A stretch of 33,448 bases of DNA from Candidatus Melainabacteria bacterium (lineage in GTDB: Bacteria; Cyanobacteriota; Vampirovibrionia; Vampirovibrionales; JAJTHC01): contig JAPLIO010000214.1 of assembly GCA_026389055.1 (NCBI GenBank), positions 1-33,448 of the forward strand. The letters run 5' to 3'. The translations under genes and the position numbers were made by a program. Shown here piece by piece: positions 310 through 33,111 of the stretch (within the stretch, counting starts at the first letter, position 1; every line of letters begins with the position of its first letter). A model generated the notes under the pieces. It was not told the origin of the DNA and did not search any database. It saw nothing but the letters and a program-made list of their open reading frames with translations.

Positions 310-343
310 TAATGAAACGGTAAAAGAACTCCATCAAGCTCAT

Positions 344-550
344 TAGACCTCTTGCATGACTCGAGAGGTGGGTGCAGATTCTAGGAATGTTGTTTGCCCT
401 GCAAACAGGTTGCTTTAGCAACCAAGAACGGAGAATTTGACGTGTACAGAGAAGTACATAAGAATTCGAGTACCACAAATGACAACGTAAAACGTTCTAC
501 GTTTTCTCGCCCTGCGGATGCCCCAGATATCGAGTCATGCAAGAGGTCTA
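344..550 (+). repeat. Family A palindromic structured element, expanded copy (207 nt)
   Basis: Starts TAGACCTCTTGCATGACTCGAG and ends with the reverse complement CTCGAGTCATGCAAGAGGTCTA. It is collinear with the 146-nt copy at 6506-6651 except for two hairpin-forming insertions at 390-425 and 488-516. Confidence 0.85.
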
Positions 551-649
551 TTATTTAACAAGTAACCCTTCAGAAGTGGTTCCATTCTACCGAAATAACC
601 AATAGTAGTTCTTATTTGTTAGTTAGCTTGGTTAGGGTAGGTTTAAAAA

Positions 650-6468: not shown

Positions 6469-6505
6469 TTGACATCTCGTATAGTTTTTGGTATAAGCTG
6501 TTTAC

Positions 6506-6651
6506 TAGACCTCTTGCATGACTCGAGAGGTGGGTGCAGATTCTAGGAATGAGGAACGGAGAATTTGACGTGTACAGAGAAGTACATAAGAATTCGAGTA
6601 CCGCAAATGACAACGAAGATGCCCCAGATATCGAGCCATGCAAGAGGTCTA
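6506..6651 (+). repeat. Family A palindromic structured element, canonical 146-nt copy
   Basis: A roughly 21-nt terminal inverted repeat (TAGACCTCTTGCATGACTCGA / TCGAGCCATGCAAGAGGTCTA) encloses the core GGGTGCA...CTAGGAATGAGGAACG...TGTAC-AGAGAA-GTACA...CAAATGACAACGAAGA...TGCCCC. Confidence 0.85.
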
Positions 6652-21164: not shown

Positions 21165-21310
21165 TAGACCTCTTGCATGGCTCGATATCTGGGGCATCTT
21201 CGTTGTCATTTGCGGTACTCGAATTCTTATGTACTTTTGTGTACACCGCAAATTCTGCGTTCCTCATTCCTAGAATCTGCACCCACCTATCGAGCCATGC
21301 AAAAGGCCTA
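21165..21310 (-). repeat. Family A palindromic structured element, 146 nt, inverted orientation
   Basis: Its reverse complement aligns end to end with 6506-6651, with roughly ten substitutions. It begins at the base immediately after the glyQ TAA stop codon. Confidence 0.85.
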
Positions 21311-21457
21311 ATAGGTTTGGGGTATTGTATCTCAATTTAAATAACAACCTAAAGTTTTGATGACTTTAGGTCGAAAGCTCTTTTAGTAGTCGTTTGTTTT
21401 ACTCCGGTTCGTTTGAAAACAGGAGTAAAGCTCGCTTCAAAACAGGAGTATATTGCA

Positions 21458-27653: not shown

Positions 27654-28922
27654 ATGCCCACCGTTTCCCATACCGAAATAGCCATGCCTGCCCTACTGTT
27701 TTTAATGGGCGGCGTATTATTGTTAATAGCCCTAGGTAGCCAAAGCTTCAAAAAACGAGGGCTTTCCCCCGTAGTAGGTGAAATGCTGGTAGGCATGGCG
27801 ATAGGGCCTTTCGGTTTTGGATGGCTTCAGCCCAATTTGGTACTTCATGTACTGGCGGAACTAGGCTTGGTGTTTTTGCTACTTGAAACGGGGCTAGAAA
27901 CCCAAATTGCCAGCCTATGGGCAGCAGGGAAATCTTCCTTAAAAGTAGCCGTTATAGGGGTTGTTTTACCCCTTATTTTAGGTACAGGTATTGGGCTAGC
28001 GTTTCAGTTGCCCCTATTGACAGCCGTTTTAGTGGGGGCAACGCTTTCCGCTACCAGTATTGGTATTACCGCCAAAGCCCTGCAGGAATTAGACCTGCAA
28101 CATCGCCCAGAAACAGCGATTATTCTGGGTGCAGCGGTGATAGATGACGTACTGGGCTTGCTGATTTTAGCCTTATTGCAAGGCTTGTTTTCATCGGCAG
28201 GAAAAGGAACGGAAATCGCCTTCACACTGGCTAATTTAATGCCTTTGTTGGGTATTATAAGCCTTGTTGCTATCGGCTATTGTGGCAGAAACTGGCTATT
28301 AACCGCTGTTTTACCGCAGATTGTTCGGGTAGGTAAGTGGTTCACGAAGAAATTAGTCGTCCCCAAAGATGGGTCTGCTAAAGAGGTTTTCATTTTAATA
28401 GGCGGTATGTTGTGCTTGTTGGCAGGGTTGAATCAAACCATCGGGCTTTCTACGGCGTTGGGGGGCTTTATGGTGGGGCTAGCCCTACAAAAATGGAGCA
28501 ATAATGAACCTCGGTTACAGTCTGTGGTGCAAGAAGTAGGCGTGGTGGGCAGTTTGATGATTCCCTTTGCGTTTGTGAATTTGGGTATGCAACTCAACTG
28601 GAAGCAGCTAATTCCTGTTGATGCTAGCGTGTTTAGCCCTCCGTTGTTGTGGGTGGCGTTGGGGATTACCGTTATTGCCTTTATTAGTAAGTATTTGGCG
28701 GGGTTTGCCGTGCCGAAAGCCAACGGAATGAATCGGTCGTTGATTGGGTTGGGGATGATTCCTCGGGGGGAAGTGGGGTTAATTTTTGTGCAGGTGGGGT
28801 TGAGTGTGGGTGCATTGACTGATTTTTGGGCGAATGTGTTGGTGCTGGCGGTTTGTATTTCCACGCTGATTCCGCCTATTTTGCTTAAAATGGCGGTGCA
28901 AGCAGAAAAGAAGCAATCATGA
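27654..28922 (+). CDS. Cation:proton antiporter (CPA2 / Na+/H+ exchanger family)
   Basis: About 12 TM helices. The motifs LGLVFLLLETGLET and GMIPRGEVGLIF are typical of Kef/NapA-type exchangers. The ATG at 27654 is preferred over the TTG at 27639. Confidence 0.85.
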   Translation: MPTVSHTEIAMPALLFLMGGVLLLIALGSQSFKKRGLSPVVGEMLVGMAIGPFGFGWLQPNLVLHVLAELGLVFLLLETGLETQIASLWAAGKSSLKVAVIGVVLPLILGTGIGLAFQLPLLTAVLVGATLSATSIGITAKALQELDLQHRPETAIILGAAVIDDVLGLLILALLQGLFSSAGKGTEIAFTLANLMPLLGIISLVAIGYCGRNWLLTAVLPQIVRVGKWFTKKLVVPKDGSAKEVFILIGGMLCLLAGLNQTIGLSTALGGFMVGLALQKWSNNEPRLQSVVQEVGVVGSLMIPFAFVNLGMQLNWKQLIPVDASVFSPPLLWVALGITVIAFISKYLAGFAVPKANGMNRSLIGLGMIPRGEVGLIFVQVGLSVGALTDFWANVLVLAVCISTLIPPILLKMAVQAEKKQS

Positions 28923-28938
28923 ATAGTATTTTCTTAAG

Positions 28939-29156
28939 TCGATTGTCGTTCCTAGCTTTCGCTGGTTGGTTTGTCAGGGGGCTGTCGTTTGACAGCCCCC
29001 CGACACCCCCCACAAATTCAGGGGCAAGCCCCTAAAAACCCCCGAAAAAACACCCCCTATGCCACCAGAAGGGCATTGACGGGGGATGCTTTTTTCGCCC
29101 CTTCGGTGGACGAAACGCTGTGCGAAAGACGCACAGGTCGTTCCTACCAGTTGGTC
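28939..29156 (+). repeat. Family B GC-rich structured element, copy 1
   Basis: Aligns with the reverse complement of 32391-32642. Helices include GGGGGCTGTC-GTTT-GACAGCCCCC, GGGGC-AA-GCCCC, CCCCC...ATGCC-ACCAGAA-GGCAT...GGGGG, C-TTCG-G and CTGTGCG-AAAGA-CGCACAG. A 10-nt direct repeat GTCGTTCCTA lies at 28945-28954 and 29137-29146. Confidence 0.75.
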
Positions 29157-29196
29157 AATTTTTACATTATTAAAGGTTTAATGGGACTCAATCATC

Positions 29197-29589
29197 ATGA
29201 AAAACAACCCCCTACATCCTGTTGCGGATTTGGAACAGATTTTAACCCATCTAAGGGCGTTTTATTTCCCGAAAGCCCCTGCATTGGCGGATTTATATAC
29301 TAGGCTGAACGAAGCTAGAGCTTGGTTTAATGCGAACGTTGAAGGCTTTACGATGATTTTGGAAGATGTTTGGAATGAAACAACCGAACACCAAACCAGG
29401 ATAGACTACCAACTCCGAAGCCTTACCACGAAAGATGAAAGCACTCCGCTAGCTAGCGATGTTTACGGCAATAGGCGGGATGCTAACGGTGTTTGGCATT
29501 TAGAGGCTTATCAGCAGTCGGTTTTATTTCTGGATACCGACCTTTCAATGGTGCGGTCTTTCCTACTAGCAAATGCCCCGAAAATGTAA
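29197..29589 (+). CDS. Hypothetical protein
   Basis: 130-aa ORF with an ATG start and no recognisable motif. It lies between family B copy 1 and hicA. Confidence 0.5.
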   Translation: MKNNPLHPVADLEQILTHLRAFYFPKAPALADLYTRLNEARAWFNANVEGFTMILEDVWNETTEHQTRIDYQLRSLTTKDESTPLASDVYGNRRDANGVWHLEAYQQSVLFLDTDLSMVRSFLLANAPKM

Positions 29590-29656
29590 CTATTTTTAGT
29601 TGTATTTTTTTGAAAGCTATGCCATACTAAGTTTAGTTACAGAAAAAAGAGGTTTT

Positions 29657-29905
29657 ATGTCCAAACAAGCCAAATTATTGGAAAAACTCAAAAATAATTC
29701 AGCCCTAAAATGGGACGAACTGGCAACGCTGTTGAAGTCTCTTGGGTTTGAACTAATCCACGAGGCAGGGTCTCGACGGAAATTTTGGCATCAATCTTCT
29801 AATACATTAATTAACTTACATCAACCGCACCCACAACCCGAACTTAAAAGGTATCAGAAAACATTGGTGCTTGAAGCCCTACAAAACGGAGGTTTTCTAT
29901 CATGA
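29657..29905 (+). CDS. hicA: HicA-family mRNA interferase toxin
   Basis: 82 aa from the ATG at 29657, with AGAGG upstream. The pattern W.EL..LL..LGFE......GS.RKF.H.......L.L..PH..P.LK.Y fits HicA. It overlaps the downstream hicB by 4 nt (ATGA). Confidence 0.8.
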   Translation: MSKQAKLLEKLKNNSALKWDELATLLKSLGFELIHEAGSRRKFWHQSSNTLINLHQPHPQPELKRYQKTLVLEALQNGGFLS

Positions 29906-30258
29906 AGTCAGATTTTTTAACCCACAAAGGGTATTCTGGGTCAGTTTCTTATTCTGCCGAAGATAACTGCTTATTTGGCAAAATAGAATTTATTAAAGAT
30001 TTAGTTACTTATGAAGGCGAAACCGTTGCCCAAGTGAAAGTGGCATTTGTTGAAGCGGTGGAAGATTATTTAGCCACCTGCGAAACCTTGGGTAAAGAGC
30101 CTGAACAACCTTTTAAAGGGGTTTTTCAAGTGCGTACCAGCCCAGAGGTGCATCGGCAATTAGCTTTTTTCGCAAAGCATTCTGAAAAAAACTTGAATGA
30201 ATTAGCCAATGAAGCGTTTCAGCAGTATTTAAATCAACAGAAGCTAAAACAACCCTAG
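29902..30258 (+). CDS. hicB: HicB-family antitoxin
   Basis: HicB N-terminal pattern YKGYSGSV.YS.ED....G.I....D......G.T........F.EAVEDYL..C...G. The C-terminal F.VR..PE.H..LA..A........NE.....Q.YL is a RHH-like DNA-binding tail. Confidence 0.85.
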   Translation: MKSDFLTHKGYSGSVSYSAEDNCLFGKIEFIKDLVTYEGETVAQVKVAFVEAVEDYLATCETLGKEPEQPFKGVFQVRTSPEVHRQLAFFAKHSEKNLNELANEAFQQYLNQQKLKQP

Positions 30259-30310
30259 CCCCTGTTTATTACGGATTTCTTATGTTTTTCATCCCGAAGG
30301 GTTGCCTCAA

Positions 30311-30319
30311 TGCTATAAT
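30311..30319 (+). promoter_or_regulatory. Possible extended -10 promoter (TGCTATAAT) upstream of the pepA leader
   Basis: The TGnTATAAT match is at 30311-30319 with no convincing -35. If it is used, the family-A-like element at 30372-30551 lies in the pepA 5' UTR. Confidence 0.3.
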
Positions 30320-30371
30320 TTAACCGTGTCTAATTCGCAAAAATCACGATGTTATTTTTTCCTGTTGTTAT

Positions 30372-30551
30372 AGAAGCTGTTTGCATAGTTGTCAAGGAAG
30401 TGCAATTTCTAGGAATGAGGAACGCAATGACGGGCGTGTAGATTAACTACATAACCGAATGTTGATTCCACTGGAATCATTCTGCCGAAGGCAGAAAATA
30501 CCGCAAATGACAACGAAAGTGCCTTGATTGGCGACTATGCAGATAGCTTCT
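30372..30551 (+). repeat. Divergent family A structured element in the pepA leader region
   Basis: It shares GTGCA(A/G)(T/A)TTCTAGGAATGAGGAACG and TACCGCAAATGACAACGAA with the canonical copies. Its closing stem is different but complementary (AGAAGCTGTTTGCATAGT... / ...ACTATGCAGATAGCTTCT). Its apical hairpin is compensated (TGTAG-ATTAA-CTACA). It also has two extra hairpins (TGATTCC-ACT-GGAATCA and TCTGCC-GAA-GGCAGA). Confidence 0.65.
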
Positions 30552-30571
30552 TAGAAAAGTGAGACCCCATT

Positions 30572-32167
30572 ATGCCAGCTGTTACGCCAACAATTTTAGT
30601 TTCAGATAAATGCCCAACCAACGTGGATGTTACCACCGTTCTAGTGCCCGTATGGGGAGCAGAAGCCCCTGCCGATAAAACCGCCGAAGATGCCCCCAAG
30701 CCCAGCCTGCCAGAATCCAAAGCCCTCAGCTGCATGGCAGAAGGCATGGGCTTACCCATTTACGCAATCGCCGCCGAAGAAAAATTCACGGGCACGCTGG
30801 CAAAAACCCTCGTCTTTCGTATGCCTGAAAGCACCGAACACAAAATTAAACGCGTCGTATTGTTAGGCCTTGGCGAAGCTAAAAAACTGACGCTCGGCAA
30901 GCTAACCATGGCAATTGCCAGCGGGTTAAAATCCATTCAAGGGTGGAATGAAGACCTTCAAAAAGTCGCCATTTCCCTGCCTAAAGCTTATGAATTGTTT
31001 GGTGGGTCGTTAAATACGGCGGAGACACTGAAAACCAGCATTTCTACAGAAGAAATTACGCTAGCCGTAACCCGTGGTGTGTTTGCTGTAACCTACAAAG
31101 CCTTAGAAGCCAAAAAACCCGCCAAAGCCTTCGCTAACTTGGTTTACCTAACCCCTGAAGTAGCCACGGTTGAACAAGCCTTACCGTTAGCTATTGCTTT
31201 GAATGAAGGGCGTTCGTTAACCAAAGATTTAGTGAACATGCCAGCCAACACCAAAACGACAAAATCGTTAGTGGATGCGGCAAAGGCCATTGCTGATGAA
31301 TTTGCTTCGGTTTCAATCACCGTGGTAGATGACGTGGCTTGGATTGAAAAAGAAATGCCCTGCTTCTACCAAGTAGCCAGAGGTAGCGTTGCAACCGACC
31401 CTCCCAAATGGATTCACTTGGTTTACAAGGGTGCGAACCCGACTCGGAAAATTGCACTTGTTGGGAAGTCCGTCATTTTTGATACGGGCGGGTACCAAGT
31501 AAAACCGGGCGATTCCATGGTTACTATGAAGGGCGATATGGCAGGTGGAGCAAGTGTTTTAGGCACATTGAAAGCCATTGCAAAAGTAGCCCCTGCCCAC
31601 TTGGAATTGCACGTTTTCCTAGCCGCTACCCCCAACAAAATTGATAGCGACGCAATGGTGCCAGATTCAATTGTCAACACCACTTGCGGAAAAACCGTGG
31701 AAATTCGTCATACCGATGCGGAAGGGCGTTTGACCTTGATTGATGCGGTTACTTTAGCTTGCAAACAAGAACCTGAAGCCATTGTAACGGTTGCCACCTT
31801 AACGGGTGCAGCCATGATGGCGGTGGGTAGAACCATTGCCTTAATGAGCAATAACCCACATTGGGGCGATTTAGTGCATGCTGGGGCGGTTACGGCAGGC
31901 GAGCCCGTCCAAGCGTTGACGGTTACCCTTGAAGATTTTGAAAATATCCAATCCAAAGCCGAAGGGGCGGATTTACGCAACACCAACAAAGGCAGAACGC
32001 GTGGGGCTCAAACCGCAGCGGCGTTTGTGATGGAAGGTGCCGATGAGGGTGTTCCGTTGGTTCATCTGGATATTGCGGGTGCGGATATGACCGATGACGA
32101 GAAAGCGACTGCTTATTCTGTTGGTTCGTTAGTTCACTTTTTGTTGGCACTACCTGCCCAAAAATAG
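30572..32167 (+). CDS. pepA: Leucyl aminopeptidase (M17 family)
   Basis: M17 catalytic blocks VGKSVIFDTGGYQVKPG, MKGDMAGGA and HTDAEGRLTLIDA (matching the NTDAEGRL signature), plus TLTGA. Confidence 0.92.
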   Translation: MPAVTPTILVSDKCPTNVDVTTVLVPVWGAEAPADKTAEDAPKPSLPESKALSCMAEGMGLPIYAIAAEEKFTGTLAKTLVFRMPESTEHKIKRVVLLGLGEAKKLTLGKLTMAIASGLKSIQGWNEDLQKVAISLPKAYELFGGSLNTAETLKTSISTEEITLAVTRGVFAVTYKALEAKKPAKAFANLVYLTPEVATVEQALPLAIALNEGRSLTKDLVNMPANTKTTKSLVDAAKAIADEFASVSITVVDDVAWIEKEMPCFYQVARGSVATDPPKWIHLVYKGANPTRKIALVGKSVIFDTGGYQVKPGDSMVTMKGDMAGGASVLGTLKAIAKVAPAHLELHVFLAATPNKIDSDAMVPDSIVNTTCGKTVEIRHTDAEGRLTLIDAVTLACKQEPEAIVTVATLTGAAMMAVGRTIALMSNNPHWGDLVHAGAVTAGEPVQALTVTLEDFENIQSKAEGADLRNTNKGRTRGAQTAAAFVMEGADEGVPLVHLDIAGADMTDDEKATAYSVGSLVHFLLALPAQK

Positions 32168-32390
32168 GGGGTTGTTCCCTTGTTAAATGCGATAGGTGTA
32201 TTATTGCTTAGTTTGGGCTGAAATTTTTAGCTTCAAACCATAGGCAGTTGGCTAGCCACAGGCAAACTACTAGACCCCCGACTGCTCATTTCGGGGGCTT
32301 TTTGCTAGCCAAAAGTGCTAGATGCCCTTGATGCGATGGAGCAAGGCTTGGGCTTTAATACCAATTGACAATTTAAATAGCGTAAGCATG

Positions 32391-32642
32391 CAAACCACCC
32401 AGTAGGAACGACCATCGCATTTGCTCTGCAGCTGCCGATGCGTTCCGTCCACCGAAGGGGCAAAAAGAACATCCCGCCGTCAATGCCCTTCTGGTGGCAT
32501 AGGCGGGTGGCGTTTAGGGTGGTTTTTCCGTAGGGGCTTGCCCCTGAATTTGTCCAAAAAAATTAAAAAGCGTGTTGGGGGGTGCCCAAACAGGCACCCC
32601 CCCGACAAACCAACCAGCTAAAGACTGAAACAACAATCGATG
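32391..32642 (-). repeat. Family B GC-rich structured element, copy 2, inverted relative to copy 1
   Basis: Its reverse complement aligns with 28939-29156. It carries compensatory differences in helix 1 (GGGGGGTGCC/GGGCACCCCCC versus GGGGGCTGTC/GACAGCCCCC) and helix 3 (CCCGCC/GGCGGG versus CCCCC/GGGGG). It is somewhat longer because of an A/T-rich insertion. Confidence 0.75.
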
Positions 32643-32709
32643 AAAGAACACGCTATTTAATCTGTGAATCGGCATCCAGCAATAAAGCACAGACAAAAAG
32701 GGGGGTTCA

Positions 32710-33111
32710 ATGGATGGATTTCGCAGTAGCCAACTAGCCAAACAAGCGGGCGTTACGGTAGAAACATTACGGTACTATCATAAAGAAGCCCTACTACCCG
32801 AACCTGAAAAAACCGAAGCGGGGTATCGTATTTACACAACGCAGGATTTGTATCAAGTGTTGTTTATCAAACGGTGTCAAAGCTTAGGATTTTCCTTAAA
32901 AGAAATTAAAGGACTGATAGCCTTAAAAACCAATACCACAGCTTGTGCTAGCGAGGTAAAAGCATTAACCGTTAGTAAAATTGCCATTATCGAAGAAAAA
33001 ATGACGGTTTTAGAAGAAATAAAAGCAACCTTAACTGGGTTAGTTCAACAATGCGATGGTAAAGGAGGCGTTTCGGACTGTACTATTTTGAAAGCGTTAG
33101 AAAATAATTAG
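32710..33111 (+). CDS. MerR-family heavy-metal-responsive transcriptional regulator
   Basis: N-terminal wHTH (LAKQAGVTVETLRYYHKEALLPEP...GYRIY) followed by a coiled-coil dimerisation helix. Cysteines at residues 79, 115 and 124 are spaced like the metal ligands of MerR, ZntR and CadR. Confidence 0.88.
   Translation: MDGFRSSQLAKQAGVTVETLRYYHKEALLPEPEKTEAGYRIYTTQDLYQVLFIKRCQSLGFSLKEIKGLIALKTNTTACASEVKALTVSKIAIIEEKMTVLEEIKATLTGLVQQCDGKGGVSDCTILKALENN

What the first reader, a model, noticed from the sequence alone, without database searches (positions are those of the whole stretch)
28939..29156. Family B: GC-rich structured element of about 220-250 nt, present as an inverted pair with compensatory changes in at least two helices
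Region 28939-29156 aligns with the reverse complement of 32391-32642 at roughly three-quarters identity by eye. Helix 1 is GGGGGCTGTC-GTTT-GACAGCCCCC in copy 1 and GGGGGGTGCC-TGTTT-GGGCACCCCCC in copy 2. Helix 3 is CCCCC...GGGGG versus CCCGCC...GGCGGG, and it encloses an invariant TATGCCACCAGAAGGGCATTGAC. The 3' hairpin has unrelated sequence in the two copies (CTGTGCG-AAAGA-CGCACAG versus a CATCG...CGATG stem) but lies within the same GGA(A/C)(G)...CGTTCC helix. GGGGCAAGCCCC and a C(TTCG)G tetraloop-like hairpin are invariant. The element is far more GC-rich than its surroundings. The ORFs called across it (28971-29303, 32421-32621, 32514-32741) are low-complexity read-throughs. I cannot assign it to any riboswitch, ribozyme, tmRNA, SRP, RNase P or 6S class.
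Basis: partly seen in the sequence, partly recalled or inferred. Interest (0 to 1): 0.66.

Follow-up and report, generated by a model that had tools for sequence, protein, structure and literature searches.

The report
Hairpin-rich MITE repeat in Vampirovibrio
The two GC-rich "structured elements" are copies of a small non-autonomous transposon (a MITE using the ends of an IS630-type insertion sequence) that fills a Vampirovibrio genome with about 50 copies; its hairpins are real and evolutionarily maintained, but nothing shows it is a functional RNA gene.

Summary
Window 28939-29156 (+) and 32391-32642 (-) are homologous at about 79% identity, and their hairpins differ by paired changes.

The two copies belong to a dispersed family. 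The related MAG Vampirovibrio sp. DET50b holds about 47 full copies. The window is syntenic with it at about 90% identity, and both window copies have orthologues there.

Copies are bounded by degenerate 25-bp inverted repeats, TACCAATTCAAAGATTAAATAGCGT. These match 24 of 26 bases of the ends of a 1085-bp IS630-family insertion sequence in the same genome. That IS has three copies at 98-99.7% identity and encodes HTH and DDE_3 domains. The same ends also bound 126-163-bp MITEs in at least seven Vampirovibrionales MAGs. Family B is therefore an IS630-type MITE carrying a ~230-nt multi-hairpin cargo.

Covariation supports the hairpins: 11 pairs carry double changes, and no shuffle of 500 reached that. 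However:
- copies are intergenic with no orientation bias;
- the strand is undecidable;
- there is no Rfam match;
- orthologous copies swap whole hairpins, which points to gene conversion.

An IS110-family element with a canonical bridge RNA inserts at CCCC-CT-GACAA, at the base of helix 1. It is a new member of a known kind and of moderate interest.

The parts
28905..28929 (+). Decayed 5' terminal inverted repeat of copy 1 (gaaaagaagcaatcatgaatagtat). It contains the stop codon (28920-28922) of the upstream cation/H+ antiporter gene.
   Evidence: Residual similarity to the TIR consensus ..CAAAGATTGAATAGCGT. The same flank is about 95% conserved in the DET50b orthologue.
28939..29156 (+). Copy 1 cargo, i.e. 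the finding itself. It is a ~218-nt multi-hairpin core of subfamily B.
   Evidence: nhmmer E = 1e-63 against the family profile. Folding z = -4.6. The orthologue is L004 1404-1629.
28972..29005 (+). Helix 1: TGTC-A-GGGGGCTGTC / GTTT / GACAGCCCCC-C-GACA.
   Evidence: Per-copy folds of about 20 distinct variants all keep the stem. Two subfamilies differ by multiple paired changes.
28971..28982 (-). Sequence CCCCC-CT-GACAA read on the minus strand. It is a perfect match to the insertion target of the IS110-family element. This copy is unoccupied. Copy 2 has CC in place of the CT core.
   Evidence: Four IS110 junctions in L060, L003, L004 and L152. The bridge-RNA target loop holds UUCCCCU and UUGUCAG. 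The guide rules come from PMC11208160.
29020..29033 (+). Hairpin 2: A-GGGG-CAAG-CCCC-T.
   Evidence: The stem is invariant. The first and fourth loop bases covary: C..G in 15 copies, U..A in 7, and G..C in L063.
29043..29097 (+). Helix 3: an A-tract/U-tract outer stem, a GC stem and the apical hairpin ATGCC-loop-GGCAT. It resembles a bidirectional terminator.
   Evidence: Five pairs have changes on both sides and 98-99% of cells are paired.
29098..29109 (+). Hairpin 4: CCCC(UUCG)GUGG. The loop reads UNCG on this strand.
   Evidence: N is U, C, A or G among copies, and 21 of 23 copies keep C(UNCG)G.
29112..29144 (+). Helix 5: outer GAAACG/CGTTCC enclosing CTGTGCG-AAAGA-CGCACAG.
   Evidence: The inner hairpin occurs in at least three sequence versions (CATCG.., CCGTGCG.., CTGTGCG..), all of them paired.
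29164..29188 (+). Decayed 3' terminal inverted repeat of copy 1 (tacattattaaaggtttaatgggac).
   Evidence: About 16 of 24 bases match the TIR consensus TACGCTATTTAATCTTTGAATTGGTA.
32358..32383 (-). 3' terminal inverted repeat of copy 2 (ATACCAATTGACAATTTAAATAGCGT, read outside to inside on the plus strand).
   Evidence: TIR scans: 4 mismatches in 25.
32391..32642 (-). Copy 2 cargo. It has a 13-nt T-rich insert after helix 1 and a 5-nt insert after hairpin 2.
   Evidence: nhmmer E = 2e-69. The orthologue is L004 4798-5028.
32650..32675 (-). 5' terminal inverted repeat of copy 2 (TGCCGATTCACAGATTAAATAGCGT on the minus strand).
   Evidence: TIR scans: 3 mismatches in 25.

Best explanation
Family B is a miniature inverted-repeat transposable element (MITE) of the IS630/Tc1-mariner type.

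Structure: a ~230-nt non-coding, GC-rich cargo of five hairpins sits between two ~25-bp terminal inverted repeats. Those repeats are the ends of a 1085-bp IS630-family insertion sequence living in the same genome.

Inferred mechanism:
- The IS630 transposase binds the repeats and moves the element in trans, by cut-and-paste, into TA dinucleotides.
- The element settles mainly downstream of genes.
- Most copies are now immobile, because their repeats have decayed.
- The cargo stays about 90% alike between copies. Its hairpins stay paired because copies exchange whole hairpin patches (gene conversion or template switching), possibly helped by selection.

Two consequences follow.
- Shown: helix 1 with the adjoining CCCC-CT-GACAA is the programmed landing site of an IS110-family element whose bridge RNA matches it.
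- Inferred: helix 3, with its A-tract and U-tract, probably acts as a transcription terminator or RNA-end hairpin in both directions.
For: - Multi-copy. The invariant 23-mer occurs 14 times in DET50b, and a looser pattern plus nhmmer finds about 47 full copies and further fragments.
- Terminal inverted repeats flank the copies.
- The same repeats, identical at 24 of 26 bases, bound a 1085-bp element that encodes HTH and DDE_3 domains (E = 6.7e-25). That element has three copies at 98-99.7% identity.
- The same repeats bound 126/136/148/163-bp MITEs in at least seven Vampirovibrionales MAGs.
- The IS630 copy in L152 sits inside a Family-B copy with a TA duplication. TA duplication is the hallmark of the IS630 family (PMC2170065).
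- All copies are intergenic: 17 between convergent genes, 17 tandem, 7 divergent. Orientation in tandem contexts is 11 same against 6 opposite.
- No ORF is conserved, because indels differ between copies.
- There is no Rfam match.
- Metagenome assemblies of the same organism break inside the element.
- Hairpins are maintained: 96.8% of cells are paired and 11 pairs carry double changes, against 4.8 in shuffles and 0-2 when partners are slid.
- Orthologous copies in the window and DET50b have about 95% identical flanks but wholesale-swapped hairpins.
- IS110 targeting rests on four insertions with CT at both junctions and on bridge-RNA loops complementary to the target and to the IS ends.
Against: - No empty site or presence/absence polymorphism of a Family-B copy was found, so mobility is inferred and not shown.
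- The TA duplication of the MITE itself cannot be separated from the first bases of its repeat.
- Only 13 of 51 copies keep both repeats in recognisable form.
- The cargo is much better conserved than the repeats: 0.87-0.93 against 0.62-0.72 identity to consensus. A simple neutral MITE does not predict this, so a function of the cargo remains possible.
- The origin of the cargo and of the direct repeat at its two ends is unexplained.
Confidence: 0.8

Rival explanations
1. The cargo is a functional structured RNA, such as an sRNA, a cis-acting RNA, or a terminator or RNA-stability module. It has been spread by the MITE and is now kept by selection at its resident sites.
For: - Strong covariation in helices 2-5 and in helix 1.
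- The cargo is conserved far better than the inverted repeats.
- A UNCG-type tetraloop with free N occurs in 21 of 23 copies.
- Helix 3 carries an A-tract and a U-tract, as bidirectional terminators do.
- Copies are enriched downstream of genes, with 51 neighbouring gene ends being 3' ends against 31 that are 5' ends.
Against: - There is no orientation bias relative to neighbouring genes: 11 same against 6 opposite.
- No promoter-like site was found.
- The strand signals conflict. Helices 2-5 show no asymmetry.
- The family is confined to one species-level lineage.
- Orthologues differ by swapped patches, not by slow compensated drift.
- Template switching can make compensatory hairpin changes without selection (PMC8794818).
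Confidence: 0.25
2. The element is an internal-deletion derivative of the IS110-family insertion sequence: the left end carrying its bridge RNA fused to the right end.
For: In contig L060 the element lies directly upstream of a 307-aa IS110 transposase. blastn shows short copies equal to L060 224-414 joined to 1535-1578.
Against: - The junctions are those of a site-specific insertion: CAGTCCC-CT-[TATGTG...CAGATG]-CT-GACAA.
- The empty site is intact in short copies.
- The four IS copies have different flanks and orientations.
- The IS carries its own 186-nt left end, which folds at z = -5.45 into two internal-loop domains. Their guides match the target and the IS ends.
- The cargo has no such loops.
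Confidence: 0.02
3. The element is a REP/BIME- or BOX-like mosaic of palindromic units, generated and spread by something other than IS630 (for example a RAYT-type HUH enzyme or replication-based processes). On this view the flanking IS630-type repeats are incidental.
For: - The cargo is modular. Helix 1 carries an optional 33-nt palindromic insert that also occurs in another MITE family.
- Solo fragments made of the 5' part plus helix 1 exist.
- IS110 elements classically target REP stem-loops.
Against: - Full copies consistently carry the IS630-type repeats or their decayed remains on both sides, at fixed distances from the cargo.
- No RAYT was searched for or seen.
- Several other MITE types with the same repeats exist in the same order.
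Confidence: 0.07

Closest known systems
IS630/Tc1-mariner-derived MITEs of bacteria (non-autonomous derivatives of elements such as ISY100 in cyanobacteria)
   Same: - Short and non-coding.
- Bounded by ~25-bp terminal inverted repeats identical at 24 of 26 bases to those of a resident IS630-family IS encoding an HTH + DDE_3 transposase.
- Flanked by TA.
- Tens of copies, all intergenic.
   Different: - The interior is unusually long (~230 nt).
- The interior is unrelated to the parent IS and to the sibling 148-bp MITE.
- The interior is organised as five GC-rich hairpins and is conserved better than the repeats themselves.
REP/BIME elements of Enterobacteria and Pseudomonas, as natural targets of IS110-family bridge recombinases (IS621, ISPpu10)
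   Same: - Extragenic and palindromic.
- Enriched between convergent genes.
- Stem maintained by covariation.
- The left half of the IS110 target is the 3' arm of a GC-rich stem-loop, as described for ISPpu10, with a CT core.
   Different: - REPs are 20-40-nt units spread by RAYT-type enzymes and have no terminal inverted repeats.
- Here the hairpin is one module of a ~300-bp IS630-type MITE.
Correia (Neisseria), ERIC/IRU (Enterobacteria) and BOX/RUP (pneumococcus) repeats
   Same: They are MITE-like dispersed repeats whose transcripts or DNA form stable hairpins. They are modular (BOX), often co-transcribed with neighbouring genes, and reported to affect termination or mRNA stability.
   Different: - There is no sequence relationship.
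- Those elements fold mainly as one long hairpin formed by their ends, whereas this one has five independent internal hairpins.
- Effects on expression have not been tested here.
IS621-type bridge RNA (Durrant et al. 2024)
   Same: This resemblance applies to the associated IS110 element and not to the finding. That element has two internal loops, each flanking a stem-loop. The LTG and RTG guides match the target, the LDG and RDG guides match the IS ends, the core is CT, and a promoter is rebuilt at the circle junction (TTGACA-18-TAGAAT).
   Different: The Family-B cargo has none of these features. It is the target, not the guide.

Membership tests
MITE of the IS630/Tc1-mariner superfamily | Small (under ~600 bp) with no coding capacity | tested here: met
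   Elements measure about 290-320 bp from repeat to repeat. Indels of 1-3 nt and differences in hairpin length between copies break every frame.
MITE of the IS630/Tc1-mariner superfamily | Terminal inverted repeats | tested here: met
   The consensus is TACCAATTCAAAGATTAAATAGCGT on both sides. Both repeats are recognisable in 13 of 51 copies, one in 19 of 51, and the rest have decayed.
MITE of the IS630/Tc1-mariner superfamily | Repeats shared with an autonomous element that encodes the transposase | tested here: met
   A 1085-bp IS occurs at L166 748-1832, L152 2394-3478 and L169 145-1229. Its repeats are TACCAATTCCAAGTTTAAATAGCGT. Its ORFs carry DDE_3 (6.7e-25) and HTH_33/28/23 domains. The three copies are 98-99.7% identical.
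MITE of the IS630/Tc1-mariner superfamily | TA target-site duplication | tested here: inconclusive
   Every well-kept copy reads TA-CCAATT...AATTGG-TA, but without an empty site the TA cannot be told apart from the repeat. A TA duplication is shown directly only for the autonomous IS inserted in L152. The family rule comes from PMC2170065.
MITE of the IS630/Tc1-mariner superfamily | Evidence of mobility (presence/absence polymorphism, many dispersed copies) | tested here: inconclusive
   About 47 dispersed copies exist. Both window copies are shared with DET50b at orthologous sites, and no filled/empty pair was found.
   Eleven pairs have changes on both sides, and no shuffle of 500 reached that. 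Sliding the partners gives 0-2 such pairs. Helix 1 variants are all paired. Caveat: the copies are paralogues that exchange patches.
   No promoter-like site was found. Orientation is 11 same against 6 opposite. The strand signals conflict.
   No expression data are available.
Known Rfam family | Covariance-model match | tested here: not met
   At gathering threshold the window yields only two tRNAs. The E-value scan of copy 1 finds nothing below E = 0.47.
IS110 bridge RNA or IS110 deletion derivative | Two internal loops with guides complementary to the target and to the element's own ends, and a CT core at the element's boundaries | tested here: not met
   The cargo folds into closed hairpins without such loops. 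These features are found instead in the separate 1.12-kb IS inserted into it.
Intrinsic (bidirectional) terminator | GC-rich stem followed by a U-tract on both strands | tested here: inconclusive
   Helix 3 has an A5-6 tract, then the stem, then UUCUUUUU, conserved in all copies. The simple scan flags only part of it. Activity was not tested.

The most novel reading that the evidence does not exclude
The 230-nt cargo is not junk. On this reading it is a domesticated, orientation-independent structured module that the MITE has distributed to about 50 gene ends. It could be a bidirectional terminator or insulator, or a DNA or RNA hairpin array. Selection keeps it after the transposon ends have decayed. 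It also serves as a dedicated safe landing pad, recognised by both sequence and structure by a bridge-RNA recombinase.
Probability: 0.2. Interest if true: 0.6.

Novelty: new member of a known kind. Interest (0 to 1): 0.35.

Why it matters
- It removes a candidate 'new RNA class' from the list and explains it as mobile DNA. This also explains why assemblies of this organism break at these sites.
- It documents a three-layer mobile-element system in a little-studied predatory relative of cyanobacteria. An IS630-family IS has several MITE families, and an IS110 bridge-RNA element is naturally programmed to a stem-loop-flanked site inside one of those MITEs.
- This gives an independent natural example of the stem-loop-plus-guide target logic reported for ISPpu10.
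- The cargo is better conserved than the transposon ends and exchanges whole hairpins between copies. That makes the family a useful case for separating selection from gene conversion or template switching as sources of 'covariation'. This caveat matters for any RNA-motif discovery pipeline that uses repeated sequences.

Tried and rejected
- Rfam: nothing found at gathering threshold or by E-value.
- IS110 deletion derivative or bridge RNA: first suggested by L060, then rejected on the junction sequences and on the IS's own bridge RNA.
- Long-range pairing of CCACC-A-GAAGGG with CCCTTCGGTGG: rejected, because the variable N of the UNCG loop would sit mismatched in the middle of that helix.
- Alternative pairing of the 5' direct repeat with the 5' strand of helix 5: rejected, because the repeat does not change in copies whose helix 5 is replaced, namely window copy 1 and L063.
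- Outer stem formed by the flanks as an RNA helix: rejected. The two arms decay independently without compensation, and they are the IS630 repeats.
- Distant homologues by pattern scans: only chance hits and Planctomycetota kinase genes outside Vampirovibrio.
- Relation of the cargo to the 148-bp sibling MITE: none, with an alignment score below the shuffle mean.
- Deciding the strand by thermodynamics or G.U asymmetry: inconclusive.
- Looking for an empty site through contigs encoding the neighbouring proteins: the contigs only broke inside the repeat, or diverged right after pepA.

Full report
**Observation**

Window 28939-29156 (+) and 32391-32642 (-) align at 79% mean column identity over an extended alignment. 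The invariant 23-mer TATGCCACCAGAAGGGCATTGAC occurs exactly twice in the window, against 0 expected. Copy 1 folds with z = -4.6 and copy 2 with z = -2.0. Rfam finds only two tRNAs in the window and nothing at the element. The GC excess is modest, at 0.50-0.53 against 0.37-0.49.

**A dispersed family**

The 23-mer occurs 14 times in one GTDB genome, the MAG Vampirovibrio sp. DET50b. A looser pattern and a profile search raise this to about 47 full copies plus fragments in that 2.49-Mb genome.

Outside this lineage, pattern scans gave only chance hits and Planctomycetota kinase genes. One lake metagenome contig (L060) and one IMG/VR contig (L063) carry a copy.

The window is not DET50b itself. 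It is syntenic with DET50b at 88-91% nucleotide identity, and both window copies have orthologues there, at L004 1404-1629 and 4798-5028. Metagenome contigs that are 99-100% identical to the window all break inside the element, as expected for a repeat.

**Boundaries and parent element**

Well-preserved copies are flanked by imperfect ~25-bp inverted repeats with consensus TACCAATTCAAAGATTAAATAGCGT, preceded and followed by TA.

Inverted pairs of the repeat define elements of these sizes:
- 148 bp (about 35 cases)
- 163, 136 and 126 bp
- about 290-320 bp (Family B)
- 1085 bp

The 1085-bp element has three copies in DET50b at 98-99.7% identity. It encodes an HTH protein and a DDE_3 protein in overlapping frames, which is the IS630/Tc1-mariner architecture. 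Its repeats, TACCAATTCCAAGTTTAAATAGCGT, match the Family-B consensus at 24 of 26 positions.

In L152 one of these IS copies sits inside a Family-B copy, between cargo and 3' repeat, and is flanked by a duplicated TA. TA duplication is the rule for the IS630 family (PMC2170065).

Family B is therefore an IS630-type MITE whose interior is the ~230-nt structured core. That interior is unrelated to the interior of the 148-bp sibling MITE and was found only in the DET50b/window lineage.

**The hairpins**

Helices 2-5 were scored on 23 distinct copies with a hand-specified structure:

| Measure | Observed | Controls |
|---|---|---|
| Cells forming standard pairs | 96.8% | 43-49% when the 3' partners are slid |
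| Pairs with changes on both sides | 11 | shuffle mean 4.8, reached in 0 of 500 shuffles; 0-2 when slid |

Examples of the paired changes:
- One pair of the GC stem of helix 3 occurs as G-C, C-G and U-A, and its neighbour as C-G or U-A.
- The A/U outer stem of helix 3 exists in two fully paired haplotypes.
- The apical stem has one G-C to A-U change.
- The inner hairpin of helix 5 exists in at least three unrelated paired versions.

Helix 1 exists in two subfamilies, TGTTAAGGGGG..CCCCCTTAACA and TGTCAGGGG..CCCCCGACA, plus many tip variants. All of them are paired.

**Why this is not good evidence for an RNA gene**

1. Copies are all intergenic, in every orientation: 17 between convergent genes, 17 tandem and 7 divergent. 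In tandem contexts the element's strand agrees with the genes 11 times and disagrees 6 times.
2. No promoter-like site is found.
3. The strand cannot be decided.
   - Both strands fold better than shuffles, with mean z of -3.3 and -3.6.
   - Helices 2-5 show no asymmetry.
4. Orthologous copies in the window and DET50b have about 95% identical flanks. Yet helix 1, the closing pair of the hairpin-2 loop, the outer stem of helix 3, the apical loop and the helix-5 hairpin are exchanged wholesale. That is patchwise gene conversion between paralogues, which moves both arms of a hairpin together and so mimics compensation.
5. Template switching at quasi-palindromes is a further DNA-level source of compensatory changes (PMC8794818).

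One observation remains that a purely neutral MITE does not predict. Identity to consensus is 0.62-0.72 in the repeats and 0.87-0.93 in the 3' two-thirds of the cargo. Only 13 of 51 copies keep both repeats in recognisable form. Either conversion homogenises the centre more than the edges, or the cargo is under selection.

The most plausible physiological effect is termination or RNA-end protection in both directions. Helix 3 is an A-tract, a GC stem and a U-tract, conserved in all copies. Also, 51 of the neighbouring gene ends are 3' ends against 31 that are 5' ends. This is an inference, not a result.

**The recombinase link**

In L060 the reverse complement of the element lies just upstream of a 307-aa protein with DEDD_Tnp_IS110 (4e-23) and Transposase_20 (1.7e-14) domains. 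I first read the short copies as left end plus right end of this IS. The junctions show the opposite.

The four IS copies (L060, L003, L004, L152) read ...TCCC(C)-CT-[TATGTGTTGG...CACAGATG]-CT-GACA... The uninterrupted site CCCC-CT-GACAA is present in short copies at the base of helix 1.

The IS's own 186-nt left end folds at z = -5.45 into two domains, each an internal loop around a stem-loop:
- Loop 1 carries UUCCCCU, identical to the left target plus core, and UUGUCAG, the reverse complement of CT+GACAA.
- Loop 2 carries ACAGAUGC, the right-end terminus plus the first core base, and CAUAAG, the reverse complement of CT+TATG.

This is the LTG/RTG/LDG/RDG logic of the IS621 bridge RNA (PMC11208160). 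The circle junction rebuilds TTGACA-18 nt-TAGAAT. The left half of the target is the 3' arm of the GC-rich helix 1, as reported for ISPpu10 and REP targets.

In the window:
- Copy 1 carries a perfect, unoccupied target at 28971-28982 on the minus strand.
- Copy 2 has CC instead of the CT core.

Two of the four IS copies have flanks from oppositely oriented half-sites, which suggests IS-associated rearrangements.

**Verdict**

The feature is real and structured, but it is the cargo of an IS630-type MITE. That makes it a new member of a known kind. It has three unusual traits: a cargo conserved better than the ends, modular hairpins exchanged between copies, and use as a bridge-RNA landing site.

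Confidence in the MITE classification is about 0.8. The probability that the cargo has a selected function is about 0.2-0.25.

Noticed in passing
L060 417-1534; L003 about 4811-3680 (-); L004 about 7587-6465 (-); L152 about 2212-1084 (-): A 1.12-kb IS110-family insertion sequence encoding a 307-aa DEDD transposase. It has a canonical bridge RNA in its left end, a CT core and a junction promoter (TTGACA-18-TAGAAT). It is naturally targeted to CCCC-CT-GACAA at the base of helix 1 of Family-B copies. Two of its four copies have flanks from oppositely oriented half-sites, which suggests inversions.
   Followed up: yes
L166 748-1832, L152 2394-3478, L169 145-1229; many loci L064-L173: A 1085-bp IS630-family IS (HTH and DDE_3 domains in two overlapping frames) with three copies at 98-99.7% identity. 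Sibling MITE families of 126, 136, 148 and 163 bp carry the same repeats in at least seven Vampirovibrionales MAGs.
   Followed up: yes
window 344-550, 6499-6651, 21165-21313; L063 2545-2724; L011 3968-4098; L003 2793-3034: A second MITE family of about 150 bp, with repeats TAGACCTCTTGCATGACTCGATA...TATCGAGTCATGCAAGAGGTCTA. In the viral contig L063 a copy lies between the Terminase_6N and Terminase_6C reading frames. Its interior resembles that of the 148-bp IS630-type MITE.
   Followed up: partly
L002 and L011 helix 1; window 330-570; L063 2520-2750: A small palindromic module, GATTGCCCTGCAATC within a ~33-nt insert. It appears as an optional insertion in helix 1 of two Family-B copies and also in copies of the second MITE family. 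The apical loop of helix 5 (CTGCAGGGCAAA) resembles it.
   Followed up: no
window 28920-28922: The stop codon of the 427-aa cation/H+ antiporter gene lies inside the decayed 5' inverted repeat of copy 1. The MITE therefore supplies the end of that reading frame. The same holds in the DET50b orthologue.
   Followed up: partly
window 29600-30258: A hicA (PF07927) and hicB (PF05534) toxin-antitoxin pair, together with an unannotated 130-aa ORF (29197-29589, no Pfam hit), lies between the two copies.
   Followed up: partly
L063 3813-5627: In an IMG/VR contig, a Family-B copy directly follows a 506-aa large serine recombinase. DUF2924, terminase and methylase genes are nearby. This may be a prophage end or attachment region lying in the repeat.
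   Followed up: no
L180 3099-3520 versus window 32168 onward: A metagenome contig that is 99.3% identical to window 29070-32167 diverges completely right after the pepA stop codon, and an L33 gene follows instead of copy 2 and merR. This is either a strain-level rearrangement or a chimeric contig.
   Followed up: partly
both ends of the cargo, e.g. window 28941-28969 and 29133-29158: A direct repeat, CGATTGTCGTTCCTA[GCTTTAG]CTGGTTGG at the 5' end and CGATGGTCGTTCCTA-CTGGTTGG at the 3' end. It does not covary with helix 5, and its origin is unexplained.
   Followed up: partly
L005 1834-1899, L003 6481-6581, L004 4526-4632, L006 4426-4507, L106 5257-5333: Solo fragments consisting of the 5' part plus helix 1, often close to a full copy and inverted relative to it. 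They may be footprints of recombination at the IS110 half-sites.
   Followed up: no
L008 6424-6626, L082, L095, L098 and others: Another hairpin repeat, GTAGGGGCG(N)CGCCCCTAC, forms the interior of the 136- and 163-bp MITEs and also occurs alone next to Family-B copies.
   Followed up: no
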